Shown: in pieces, positions 39,852 to 40,022 of the stretch
How the letters are laid out: each line of letters opens with the position of its first letter
How positions within the stretch are numbered: position 1 is the stretch's first letter
NCBI GenBank assembly: GCA_963716985.1
Contig: OY970323.1
Coordinates: forward strand, 1,248,001-1,312,000
DNA: 64,000 nucleotides
DNA from: an uncultured bacterium
GTDB lineage: Bacteria > Chlamydiota > Chlamydiia > Chlamydiales > SM23-39
Direction: 5' to 3'
Position numbers and translations under genes: made by a program
Notes under the pieces: model-generated
The model's database searches: none
Seen by the model: only the letters and a program-made list of their open reading frames with translations
What the model was told of the DNA's origin: nothing

Positions 39852-40022
39852 TAGGAGGCCCGGGGTGTTAACTTTCGATAAAAAAATCCCTGATCCCCCT
39901 ATGAATAATCCGGCATGTTTAAGCCCCCCTCTGCCCAATGAAAACAGGGATGGATTACAAAGGGAAGTTCCTGAGCATAGAAACGGGACACGCCACCAAA
40001 AATTAACACCCCATAGGAGGCC
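39852..40022 (-). other. 153-bp palindromic element with 9-bp flanking direct repeats; candidate structured RNA or palindromic mobile element
   Basis: GGGGTGTTAA (39862-39871) / TTAACACCCC (40003-40012); nested stems; TAGGAGGCC at 39852-39860 and 40014-40022. Confidence 0.6.

What the first reader, a model, noticed from the sequence alone, without database searches (positions are those of the whole stretch)
39852..40022. 153-nt rod-like palindrome with a minus-strand G-U signature, antisense to the PIN/TRAM leader: candidate ncRNA
Seen: 39861-40013 pairs end to end as a 19-bp outer stem, then TCCC/GGGA, CCCCTATG/CATAGAAA, an asymmetric central bubble, and an 11-bp apical stem (39924-39934 with 39957-39967). 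At least 11 non-Watson-Crick positions in these stems are C/A on the plus strand, i.e. G-U on the minus strand, against about one of the opposite kind. Random decay of a DNA palindrome should not be this strand-biased. Inference: selection on a minus-strand RNA. The size and rod-with-bubble shape recall 6S RNA; alternatively it is an antisense regulator of the PIN-domain gene, whose SD it abuts. Caveat: I found no convincing minus-strand promoter or terminator.
Basis: partly seen in the sequence, partly recalled or inferred. Interest (0 to 1): 0.75.

Follow-up and report, generated by a model that had tools for sequence, protein, structure and literature searches.

The report
Mini-transposon inserted in a ribosome-binding site
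The 153-base palindrome is one of three copies of a small gene-less jumping element that landed in, and duplicated, the ribosome-binding site of a gene in an environmental chlamydia; it belongs to an insertion-sequence family whose enzyme is still labelled "hypothetical", and it is not a 6S-like RNA gene.

Summary
The palindrome and its strand bias are real. The minus-strand RNA folds at -70.6 kcal/mol (z -4.0), the plus strand at -43.2 (z -0.35). A strand-neutral self-alignment gives 12 minus-type wobble positions against 0 plus-type.

It is not a stand-alone RNA gene. It is a 153-bp miniature inverted-repeat transposable element (MITE):
- The genome holds three copies.
- The ends are TGGGGTGTYAAC...GTTAACACCCCA.
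- Two copies have perfect 9-bp target duplications. Here the duplication is TAGGAGGCC, the Shine-Dalgarno sequence of the PIN/TRAM gene.
- A same-genus genome has the uninterrupted site.
- A second copy sits in frame in an outer-membrane-protein gene, as Rickettsia palindromic elements do.

I traced the parent insertion-sequence (IS) family. These are roughly 1.9-2.0 kb elements with TGGGGTGT ends and 9-bp duplications. This genome holds 8 complete copies. The 474-aa enzyme has no Pfam or NCBIfam match, but its predicted fold is a DDE transposase (Hermes Z 14.8, ISCth4 Z 11.6).

No 6S match and no minus-strand promoter were found. The G-U polarity is unusual (top 2 of 170 palindromes here) and RNA-specific, and a 75%-identical relative keeps it with compensatory changes. 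Its cause is unresolved. This scan has noted palindromic MITEs in other chlamydial genomes before.

The parts
39852..39860 (+). Left copy of the 9-bp target-site duplication TAGGAGGCC. It is a duplicate of the Shine-Dalgarno sequence and now lies 6 nt upstream of GTG 39865.
   Evidence: Read directly. It is identical to 40014-40022. The same-genus genome G001 has a single GAGGAGGCA before the ATG.
39861..40013 (.). MITE copy 1, 153 bp, an end-to-end imperfect palindrome. Its minus strand folds strongly as RNA.
   Evidence: Three copies in the genome. Alignment. Folds.
39861..39877 (+). Left terminal inverted repeat, CGGGGTGTTAACTTTCG.
   Evidence: It matches the ends of the G159/G271 insertion sequence.
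39997..40013 (+). Right terminal inverted repeat, CAAAAATTAACACCCCA.
40014..40022 (+). Right copy of the target-site duplication. This is the native Shine-Dalgarno sequence of the PIN/TRAM gene.
   Evidence: The ATG at 40024 aligns with the start of the orthologues in 5 relatives.
39865..40023 (+). Open frame through the element, starting at a GTG inside the left inverted repeat and in frame with the PIN/TRAM ORF. It may give an N-terminally extended isoform.
   Evidence: ORF 39865..41085. Frame +2 has 0 stops in all three genome copies. The public gene call starts inside the element (394 aa).
40024..41085 (+). PIN/TRAM-domain membrane protein gene (353 aa), the host gene whose 5' leader received the insertion.
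   Evidence: Pfam TRAM PF01938, E 9.1e-6. Orthologues are 65-71% identical in 5 of 5 relatives searched.
39798..39826 (+). Promoter-like TCGACA-N17-TACAAT of the PIN/TRAM gene. It places the element inside the plus-strand 5' UTR.
   Evidence: 10 of 12 consensus matches. The same motif and spacing are readable upstream of the orthologue in all 6 genomes compared.
39320..39769 (+). Upstream gene rlmH (SPOUT methyltransferase).
   Evidence: Pfam PF02590, E 6.8e-38.

Best explanation
The palindrome is a 153-bp MITE. It derives from the ends of an unannotated DDE insertion-sequence (IS) family that has TGGGGTGT termini and makes 9-bp staggered target cuts.

This copy inserted into the Shine-Dalgarno sequence of the PIN/TRAM gene after the split from the sister species, and duplicated it. 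One intact SD-ATG unit therefore remains, and the gene is still served by its conserved upstream promoter. The element is transcribed, in its weakly folding plus orientation, as part of the 5' UTR (inferred).

The one-sided G-U pattern belongs to the element family, not to this locus. The most likely cause is a constraint on the RNA hairpin made when the minus strand is transcribed. That makes the element orientation-dependent: nearly structure-free and open-framed when its plus strand lies in a leader or coding region (copies 1 and 2), and a roughly -55 to -63 kcal/mol hairpin when its minus strand lies behind a gene's 3' end (copy 3 and the G144 copy).

Shown: the repeat, the inverted-repeat ends, the target duplications, the empty site, the parent IS family and the polarity. 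Inferred: transcription, the orientation effect, and RNA-level selection.
For: Copies and ends.
- Three copies, 88-91% identical to this one. Nothing else in the 2.07-Mb genome matches: the next nhmmer hit has E 0.32.
- 9 of 9 flanking direct repeats at copy 1 (TAGGAGGCC) and copy 3 (GAGAAATCC), 7 of 9 at the G144 copy, 5 of 9 at copy 2.

Empty sites.
- G001 (same genus) has rlmH, the promoter, GAGGAGGCA and the ATG with no element.
- Paralogues and homologues of copy 2's host protein align only from residue about 73. A 58%-identical paralogue lacks the 51 residues.

Parent family.
- A 2033-bp IS in G159 has ends TGGGGTGTAAACTTT and the 9-bp duplication GATTCACAC.
- An 848-bp internal-deletion derivative of it has the duplication TTATTGGTT.
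- The IS end aligns with the MITE's left arm over about 70 nt (z 2.1-2.4 beyond the inverted repeat).
- G000 itself holds 7 identical 1912-bp copies and one 1840-bp variant. All 8 have TGGGGTGT...ACACCCCA ends and 9 of 9 duplications.

The enzyme.
- D90, D158 and E370 are invariant in 34 sequences.
- Model pLDDT 85.
- Foldseek: ISCth4 E 5e-6. VIA-align: Hermes Z 14.8, ISCth4 Z 11.6.

Polarity.
- Searches show it. It is RNA-specific.
- The G144 copy keeps it: minus z -4.79, plus z -2.74.
- 97.4% of 228 cells pair on the minus strand, and 7 pairs carry changes on both sides. 0 of 500 shuffles reach this; slid controls give 1-3 pairs.
- All 7 polarised transitions at paired sites within G000 keep minus-strand pairing.
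Against: - No RNA data exist for this organism, so no strand is shown to be transcribed.
- The covariation rests on 4 sequences, 3 of them close relatives. The alignment and the structure were derived from the same sequences.
- A strand-biased mutation process (C to T and A to G on one strand) would create a one-sided G-U pattern without any selection.
- The plus strand is also the open reading frame, so a coding or compositional constraint could favour A and C there.
- No IS with the MITE's full 15-17-nt inverted repeat is present in G000 or G144. The resident IS shares only the first 8 nt plus position 10, so which enzyme moved the MITE is unknown.
- The right arm shows no similarity to either IS end beyond the inverted repeat (z about 0).
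- The orientation pattern rests on 4 informative copies.
Confidence: 0.6

Rival explanations
1. Same MITE, but the G-U polarity has no RNA function. It is a by-product of one of two things. Either a strand-biased transition process acted (C to T and A to G on the minus strand, for example deamination of one strand). Or the plus strand is kept A+C-rich, stop-free and weakly folded so that insertions into leaders and coding regions are tolerated.
For: - Any C-to-T or A-to-G change on the minus strand of a palindrome yields G-U and never A-C. This follows from base-pairing rules.
- The plus strand has A 52, C 41, G 30, T 30.
- Frame +2 is open in all 3 genome copies, and element plus duplication is 162 bp, a multiple of 3.
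- Copies 1 and 2 lie in a leader and in a coding region in exactly that orientation.
- The right arm looks like a transition-shifted copy of the left arm.
Against: - The three copies differ in replication orientation (origin near 0.1 Mb, terminus near 1.2 Mb) yet share the polarity.
- Polarised changes on the minus strand within G000 include 4 G-to-A against 2 C-to-T and 2 A-to-G. The 3 paired G-to-A changes all fall on G-U pairs. That fits structure-keeping better than one-way mutation.
- The G144 copy has a broken frame (4 stops in frame +2) and still shows 16:2.
- Copy 1 against copy 2 shows 6 synonymous and 8 non-synonymous changes, so there is no clear protein-level constraint.
- Three adjacent compensated pairs in the apical hairpin are not explained by this reading.
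Confidence: 0.3
2. A dedicated minus-strand non-coding RNA gene: either a 6S-like RNA polymerase-binding RNA, or a cis-antisense regulator that pairs with the PIN/TRAM leader and its ribosome-binding site.
For: - The minus-strand fold is strong, at z -3.99.
- The size, about 150 nt, fits.
- No canonical 6S was detected elsewhere in the genome with RF00013. That model rings in only 5 of 14 control genomes, so this is weak.
Against: - Three dispersed copies with target duplications.
- Absent from the orthologous spacer in G001 and from 101 of the 102 other family genomes searched with a covariance model.
- No Rfam match at E up to 10 on either strand.
- No minus-strand promoter in 39600-40300, and no T-run after the hairpin.
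- Branched fold without a large two-sided central bubble.
- Two of three copies lie in unrelated contexts, so any antisense pairing to the PIN/TRAM leader is a result of where the element landed.
Confidence: 0.04
3. A coding palindromic element of the Rickettsia type, whose point is the peptide it adds: the roughly 51-residue hydrophilic segment is kept because it benefits the host proteins.
For: - Copy 2 is in frame between the signal peptide and the barrel of an OMP-like protein.
- Copy 1's frame fuses to PIN/TRAM behind a duplicated SD and a GTG.
- Copy 3's indel is 3 nt.
Against: - Only 1 of 5 copies is inside a gene.
- The peptide search among longer proteins found only the window's own PIN/TRAM call (1 hit from 2 candidates).
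- 8 of 14 in-frame differences between copies 1 and 2 change the residue.
- The G144 copy is frame-broken.
Confidence: 0.05

Closest known systems
Bacterial MITEs with long target duplications, e.g. QMITE2 of Coxiella burnetii (PMC5896051; I read the abstract and passages)
   Same: - 150-190 bp, non-coding, inverted-repeat ends, 7-11-nt direct repeats of variable sequence.
- Found in an intracellular bacterium.
- Copies can overlap ORFs and feed into transcripts and sRNAs.
   Different: - Here there are only 3 copies, against about 50.
- The element is a full-length palindrome with one-sided G-U pairing.
- A candidate parent IS family with the same ends and the same duplication length was identified.
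- No sequence relation was tested.
Rickettsia palindromic elements (RPEs), as summarised in the review PMC10969869 (passages read)
   Same: - Palindromic repeats of about 150 bp in an obligate intracellular bacterium.
- They carry an open frame and can sit in frame inside host genes. Copy 2 adds 51 residues to an OMP-like protein.
   Different: - This element has clear inverted-repeat ends, 9-bp target duplications and an identifiable DDE transposon family.
- Only 1 of 3 genome copies is intragenic.
- It lies in a different phylum. Sequence similarity to RPEs was not tested.
Correia/NEMIS and ERIC elements (recalled, not read here)
   Same: Hairpin-forming MITEs that are co-transcribed with neighbouring genes, with effects on the transcript that depend on orientation.
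   Different: - Those families have hundreds of copies and TA-type duplications (recalled).
- The strong one-strand G-U polarity seen here is not something I can cite for them.
IS256-family transposase ISCth4 (PDB 6XG8, 6XGX) and hAT transposase Hermes (PDB 4D1Q, 6DWZ)
   Same: - The parent IS's 472-474-aa protein is predicted to have an RNase H-like DDE core with a large helical insertion domain before the catalytic E.
- Foldseek E 5e-6 to ISCth4. VIA-align Z 14.8 to Hermes and 11.6 to ISCth4.
- IS256 elements make 8-9-bp duplications (recalled).
   Different: - No sequence-level match: 0 Pfam and 0 NCBIfam transposase families at E up to 0.1, and no PDB sequence hit below E 1.
- There is an extra upstream coiled-coil ORF overlapping the transposase frame.
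6S RNA (Rfam RF00013)
   Same: Size of order 150-180 nt, with a long closing stem.
   Different: - No model match.
- Multi-copy and mobile.
- Not conserved in relatives.
- Branched interior instead of a central open-promoter-like bubble.
- No promoter of its own found.

Membership tests
[quoted passage not shown] | Small and without a transposase gene | tested here: met
   153-156 bp. The only long frame is a 50-residue read-through.
[quoted passage not shown] | Terminal inverted repeats | tested here: met
   TGGGGTGTYAAC / GTTAACACCCCA in all 4 full copies.
[quoted passage not shown] | Target-site duplication of fixed length at independent insertion sites | tested here: met
   9 of 9 at copies 1 and 3, 7 of 9 at the G144 copy, 5 of 9 at copy 2. 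The duplicated sequence differs at each site.
[quoted passage not shown] | Several dispersed copies, and an empty site in relatives | tested here: met
   3 copies in G000. The G001 spacer lacks the element. A paralogue of copy 2's host lacks the insert.
[quoted passage not shown] | An autonomous IS with matching ends and the same duplication length | tested here: met
   - G159 IS: 2033 bp, ends TGGGGTGTAAACTTT, 9-bp duplication.
- G000 IS: 1912 bp, ends TGGGGTGTGACAAA, 9-bp duplication in 8 of 8 copies.
- Caveat: the IS with the closest ends is in another family's genome. The resident IS shares only 8-10 terminal nt.
Rickettsia palindromic elements (RPE) | Palindromic repeat of about 100-150 bp with an open frame, inserted in frame in host genes | tested here: met
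   Copy 2 lies in frame in an OMP_b-brl-like gene. This applies to 1 of 3 genome copies.
Rickettsia palindromic elements (RPE) | Sequence membership in RPE-1 to RPE-10 | not tested
   No RPE sequences were fetched. The host phylum is different.
6S RNA | Match to the 6S covariance model | tested here: not met
   No hit on 39000-41000 at E up to 10. No RF00013 hit in the genome at E up to 1, from 25 candidates.
6S RNA | Single conserved gene shared by relatives | tested here: not met
   Three mobile copies. The covariance model R1 finds the element in 2 of 103 family genomes.
6S RNA | Long helix interrupted by a large central bubble | tested here: inconclusive
   Predicted folds are branched, with small internal loops. 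This is prediction only.
cis-antisense sRNA gene | Own promoter and terminator on the antisense strand | tested here: not met
   0 minus-strand promoter-like sites in 39600-40300. The two minus-strand 'terminator-like' sites are the SD/inverted-repeat junction itself.
DDE transposase (RNase H-like fold) for the parent IS protein | Conserved acidic triad on an RNase H-like core | tested here: met
   - D90, D158 and E370 are invariant in 34 sequences.
- The model places them on strand 1, after strand 4, and on the helix after the insertion domain.
- Structural matches to Hermes, ISCth4, P element and integrase cores.
- Catalysis was not tested.
IS256 family | Sequence match to the family's transposase models | tested here: not met
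   0 Pfam and 0 NCBIfam families at E up to 0.1 for both the G159 and the G000 proteins.

The most novel reading that the evidence does not exclude
The element family is kept as a mobile RNA hairpin module. Selection acts on the fold of its minus-strand transcript, for example as a 3'-end protecting or processing hairpin, or as an RNA used by the transposon itself. The opposite strand is kept unstructured and translatable. One small transposon would then have two orientation-specific, host-compatible faces. Behind it stands a widespread DDE insertion-sequence family with a hAT/IS256-like fold that no public protein-family library names.
Probability: 0.2. Interest if true: 0.6.

Novelty: new member of a known kind. 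Interest (0 to 1): 0.4.

Why it matters
- It replaces a tempting "new regulatory RNA" reading with a documented mobile-element insertion.
- It explains why public gene calls give the PIN/TRAM protein a spurious N-terminal extension: 394 aa starting inside the element.
- It shows a tidy natural case of a transposon landing in a ribosome-binding site without killing the gene, because the target duplication regenerates the site.
- It exposes an insertion-sequence family that is active in this genome (7 identical copies). The family is found in chlamydiae and on cyanobacterial, Thiodictyon and Persicobacter plasmids. Its transposase is everywhere annotated as "hypothetical protein". Naming it would improve annotation of many genomes.
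- The one-sided G-U pattern is a concrete, testable case for asking whether bacterial MITEs are shaped at the RNA level.

Tried and rejected
- **Rfam.** An E-value scan of 39000-41000 gave 7 weak hits. None is on the element.
- **6S.** RF00013 in the whole genome gave none. The model rings in only 5 of 14 control genomes, so this says little.
- **RNA evidence.** No RNA holder is listed among 12 runs. I laid contigs of 4 soil DNA runs. They bridge the left junction of copy 1 (X1, X4) and the right junctions of copies 2 and 3. They show no joint that would mark an empty site.
- **Wider family searches.**
  - 0 of 40 relatives by BLAST.
  - In 400 phylum genomes, only G144 has a full-length match. 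The other 8 genomes' 19-29-nt matches look like chance matches: the six I read are short A-run matches in unrelated sequence, and the other two (L013, L014) I judged only by weak nhmmer scores (E 0.016 and 0.0078).
  - The genome contigs pattern gave 7 loci, 1 true and the same as the G144 copy.
  - The metagenome 18-mer gave 14 loci, 1 true and again the same sequence.
  - The peptide search among longer proteins gave 1 hit, the window's own protein.
  - Covariance model R1 matched 2 of 103 family genomes.
- **Parent IS inside G000 with the MITE's own inverted repeat.** No further 11-mer ends. With up to 4 mismatches, 3 candidate pairs appeared, which hold PhoH, NUDIX, IspD and two unnamed small ORFs and no transposase.
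- **L021.** The G118 16-nt end match lies inside a 469-aa ORF, so it is chance.
- **The 124-bp MITE pair noted earlier in this genome.** It has different ends (GGCCATGTTCAC) and 8-9-bp flanking repeats. No transposase lies in that 10-kb region.
- **Inverted-repeat pattern scan of 401 phylum genomes.** Real and reversed-control patterns hit about equally often. Only the G271 contig-end pair was informative.
- **PDB sequence search with the transposase profile.** Nothing below E 1.
- **Replication-strand bias as the cause of the polarity.** The copies lie in different replication orientations.

Full report
**1.
Window 39861-40013 is a 153-nt imperfect palindrome. As RNA, the minus strand of 39852-40022 folds at -70.6 kcal/mol (z -3.99, 0 of 200 dinucleotide shuffles as stable). 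The plus strand folds at -43.2 (z -0.35, 70 of 200).

I aligned the element to its own reverse complement with both transition types scored alike. This gives 12 positions that are G-U on the minus strand and none that are G-U on the plus strand (binomial p 0.0005). With DNA energy parameters the two strands are alike and unremarkable (-19.9 and -16.6 kcal/mol, z -1.3 and -1.0). The asymmetry is therefore specific to RNA pairing rules.

I also scanned the genome for palindromes bounded by an 11-mer inverted repeat and folded both strands. Among the 170 strong ones, the median strand difference is 3.7 kcal/mol, the 95th percentile is 15.0, and only 2 reach 23.9. This element's copies differ by 22-25.

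**2. It is a repeat with target-site duplications.**
The window's genome (G000, one contig of 2,067,739 bp) holds exactly three copies:

| Copy | Place in G000 C1 | Strand | Identity to this copy |
|---|---|---|---|
| 1 (this one) | 1287861-1288013 | + | - |
| 2 | 197237-197389 | + | 91% |
| 3 | 1188453-1188608 | - | 88% |

The next nhmmer hit has E 0.32. All copies end TGGGRTGTYAAC...GTTAACACCCCA.

- Copy 1 is flanked by TAGGAGGCC on both sides (39852-39860 and 40014-40022).
- Copy 3 is flanked by GAGAAATCC on both sides.
- Copy 2's flanks agree at 5 of 9 positions.

The finding's coordinates are exactly duplication plus element plus duplication.

**3. The site before insertion.**
The duplicated 9-mer is the Shine-Dalgarno sequence of the PIN/TRAM gene. 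That gene has its ATG at 40024, is 353 aa long, and matches the TRAM domain at E 9e-6. The upstream gene is rlmH (PF02590).

In the same-genus genome G001 the orthologous region reads rlmH stop, TCGACA-N17-TACAAT, then AAAAAAGAGGAGGCATATG, with no element. Removing the element and one repeat copy from G000 gives the same layout. The TCGACA-N17-TACAAT motif (39798-39826, 10 of 12 consensus matches) stands upstream of the orthologue in all six genomes compared.

From this I infer that the element lies about 25 nt into the plus-strand 5' UTR. That leader is not unusually structured (z +0.61). The scan found no promoter-like site on the minus strand in 39600-40300.

The distal SD copy now lies 6 nt before a GTG inside the left inverted repeat (39865). 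This opens a frame that runs through the element into the PIN/TRAM frame. The public gene call (394 aa) starts at an ATG inside the element. The orthologues start at the residue that matches ATG 40024.

**4. A copy inside a gene.**
Copy 2 lies in frame in a 260-aa ORF, between the signal peptide and an OMP_b-brl-like barrel (PF13505, E 2.6e-5, below the curated cut-off). Homologues in 11 of the 25 relatives searched, and paralogues in G000, align only from residue about 73. A 58%-identical paralogue runs straight from signal peptide to barrel.

The same frame (+2) has no stop in all three G000 copies. Copy 3 differs by a 3-nt indel, and element plus duplication is 162 bp.

This resembles the Rickettsia palindromic elements as summarised in PMC10969869 (passages read). 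There is no sign of protein-level constraint:
- 8 of 14 in-frame differences between copies 1 and 2 change the residue.
- The relative in G144 has 4 stops in that frame.
- A search for the peptide among longer proteins found only the window's own protein.

**5. Distribution.**

| Search | Result |
|---|---|
| BLAST, 40 relatives | 0 |
| BLAST, 400 phylum genomes | G144 only (other genus, same family): one full copy at 75% identity with flanks agreeing at 7 of 9, and one truncated copy |
| Covariance model on the 4 full copies, 103 family genomes | 2 (G000, G144) |
| Pattern scan, GTDB contigs | only the G144 sequence again |
| 18-mer scan, metagenome contigs | only the G144 sequence again |

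Soil metagenome contigs of two runs bridge copy 1's left junction and carry T>C at 39869.

**6. The parent insertion sequence.**
A scan for the 17-nt end with one mismatch hit about as often as its reversed control. One result was informative: in G271, two contigs end in the same 141 nt, which begin TGGGGTGTAAACTTTCG. That stretch aligns with the MITE's left arm over about 70 nt.

In the complete genome G159 (same genus as G271):
- The sequence is the end of a 2033-bp element with TGGGGTGTAAACTTT inverted ends and the 9-bp duplication GATTCACAC.
- An 848-bp internal-deletion derivative has the duplication TTATTGGTT.
- The element carries a 129-aa coiled-coil-like ORF that overlaps a 472-aa ORF at an A8 run. 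The long ORF ends about 20 nt from the terminus.

A profile of that protein then found 9 places in G000 itself. These are seven 100%-identical 1912-bp copies, one interrupted copy and one 1840-bp variant. All 8 complete ones have TGGGGTGTGACAAA...TTTGTCACACCCCA ends and perfect 9-bp duplications. The nearest copy lies about 7.1 kb beyond the window's end.

The MITE thus shares the terminal octamer and the duplication length with the resident IS, and 15-17 nt plus its left arm with the G159-type IS. No IS with the MITE's exact ends is in G000 or G144, so the enzyme that moved it is not identified.

**7. The enzyme.**
- The 472-474-aa protein has no Pfam or NCBIfam match at E up to 0.1 and no PDB sequence match below E 1.
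- It has 113 relatives in the protein collection, none with a Pfam domain. The only names any source gives are "hypothetical protein", and most sit on contigs of about 2 kb.
- It occurs on 15 plasmid records (Nostoc, Calothrix, Gloeothece, Thiodictyon, Persicobacter). The features under the match are "hypothetical protein" in 13 records and none in 2; in one of the 13 a "transposase" label also stands under the match.
- In an alignment of 34 sequences, D90, D158 and E370 are invariant.
- The AlphaFold model (pLDDT 85.2, pTM 0.80) is an RNase H-like core with a large helical insertion before the helix that carries E370.
- Foldseek gives ISCth4 transposase (IS256 family) at E 5.3e-6 and Hermes at 1.9e-4. 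VIA-align gives Hermes Z 14.8 (308 residues, rmsd 4.7), ISCth4 Z 11.6, P element Z 10.9 and integrase cores about Z 10.

I read this as a DDE transposase of a family that the libraries at hand do not name. I could not consult ISfinder.

**8. What the G-U polarity means.**
It belongs to the family, not to this locus. All three G000 copies and the G144 copy show it (12:0, 14:1, 16:2, 16:2). For G144 the minus strand has z -4.79 and the plus strand z -2.74.

On the four-sequence alignment:
- 97.4% of 228 cells pair on the minus strand.
- 7 pairs carry changes on both sides, including three adjacent ones in the apical hairpin.
- 0 of 500 column shuffles reach this. Slid controls give 1-3 such pairs and 48-56% pairing.

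I polarised the differences within G000 with the G144 copy as outgroup. All 7 transitions at paired sites keep minus-strand pairing: 2 C-G to U-G, 2 A-U to G-U, and 3 G-U to A-U. By my own estimate, about 62% of transitions at paired sites would be compatible by chance.

Replication strand does not explain it, because the copies differ in orientation relative to the origin (near 0.1 Mb) and terminus (near 1.2 Mb).

Limits on this evidence:
- There are four sequences, and three are close kin.
- The structure was derived from the same sequences.
- A one-strand excess of C-to-T and A-to-G would mimic the pattern.
- The plus strand is also the open frame.

Orientation of the copies fits an RNA-level, orientation-dependent tolerance, but n is 4:
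- The weakly folding strand is the sense strand in the leader (copy 1) and in the coding region (copy 2).
- The strongly folding strand is co-directional with the upstream gene at copy 3 (186 nt after its stop) and at the G144 copy (32 nt after a glycosyltransferase gene).

**9. Comparison and verdict.**
This is a MITE, a known kind. It comes from a sequence family and a parent IS family that I could not find named. The review PMC10969869 does not contain the word chlamydia. A full-text search for MITE plus Chlamydiae gave 10 papers, none about chlamydial MITEs judged by title and abstract start. MITE-derived sRNAs and in-frame MITEs are already described (PMC5896051 abstract and passages; PMC10969869 passages).

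Earlier notes of this scan report palindromic, partly in-frame MITEs in other environmental chlamydiae, and another MITE family in this genome. I treated those as leads only.

The 6S and antisense-gene readings fail their tests. The RNA-constraint idea survives as a minority-to-moderate possibility.

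Noticed in passing
G000:C1:236243-238154 (L119 952-2863). Further copies at 105200, 468020, 1319137, 1607493, 1839904 and 1973467. Interrupted copy at 727935-731761. Variant at 154463-156302.: An insertion sequence of 1912 bp in 7 identical copies, plus one interrupted copy and one 1840-bp variant. 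Ends are TGGGGTGTGACAAA, and 8 of 8 complete copies have perfect 9-bp duplications. It carries a coiled-coil ORF overlapping a 474-aa ORF that has no Pfam or NCBIfam match and a predicted DDE fold of the Hermes/ISCth4 type. Relatives everywhere are called 'hypothetical protein'.
   Followed up: yes
G159:C1, L113 (reverse strand) 353-1200: An 848-bp internal-deletion derivative of the 2033-bp IS (164 nt of one end joined to 685 nt of the other) with its own 9-bp duplication. It is an intermediate step between IS and MITE.
   Followed up: partly
window 39901-41085: The public protein for the PIN/TRAM gene (394 aa, P0002) starts at an ATG inside the mobile element. Orthologues start at the residue that matches ATG 40024, so the annotated N-terminus is probably an artefact.
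   Followed up: partly
window 27475-27726: A 252-nt palindrome bounded by an 11-mer inverted repeat. It folds equally well on both strands (-87.1 and -89.9 kcal/mol) and is probably another MITE-type repeat.
   Followed up: no
G000:C1:614811-614965 and 1203685-1203839: Two near-identical 155-nt elements, AGTTGCAAAACTC...GAGTTTTGCAACT, with a strand asymmetry as strong as the finding's (-65.7 against -41.8 and -67.7 against -48.3 kcal/mol). They are unrelated in sequence to it.
   Followed up: no
G000 genome-wide: Many palindromic repeat families. One 102-nt family has more than 25 copies with identical fold energies. A 190/194-nt family has about 10 copies. In all, 170 strongly folding palindromes bounded by inverted repeats were found.
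   Followed up: no
window 39869: Contigs of two soil metagenome runs that bridge the element's left junction read C instead of T here. This turns a U-A pair of the minus-strand fold into U-G, the state seen in copies 2 and 3.
   Followed up: no
L002 2-1435 (G000:C1:195739-197172): The gene just upstream of copy 2's host encodes a 467-477-aa protein made of about eight tandem units of roughly 50 residues (…CCFDSNNNQIFATWGD…YYDGTTWN…).
   Followed up: no
window 39798-39826 and the orthologous spacers in G001, G002, G004, G013 and G144: TCGACA-N17-TACAAT is kept upstream of the PIN/TRAM gene in all six genomes compared, even where the upstream neighbour differs.
   Followed up: partly
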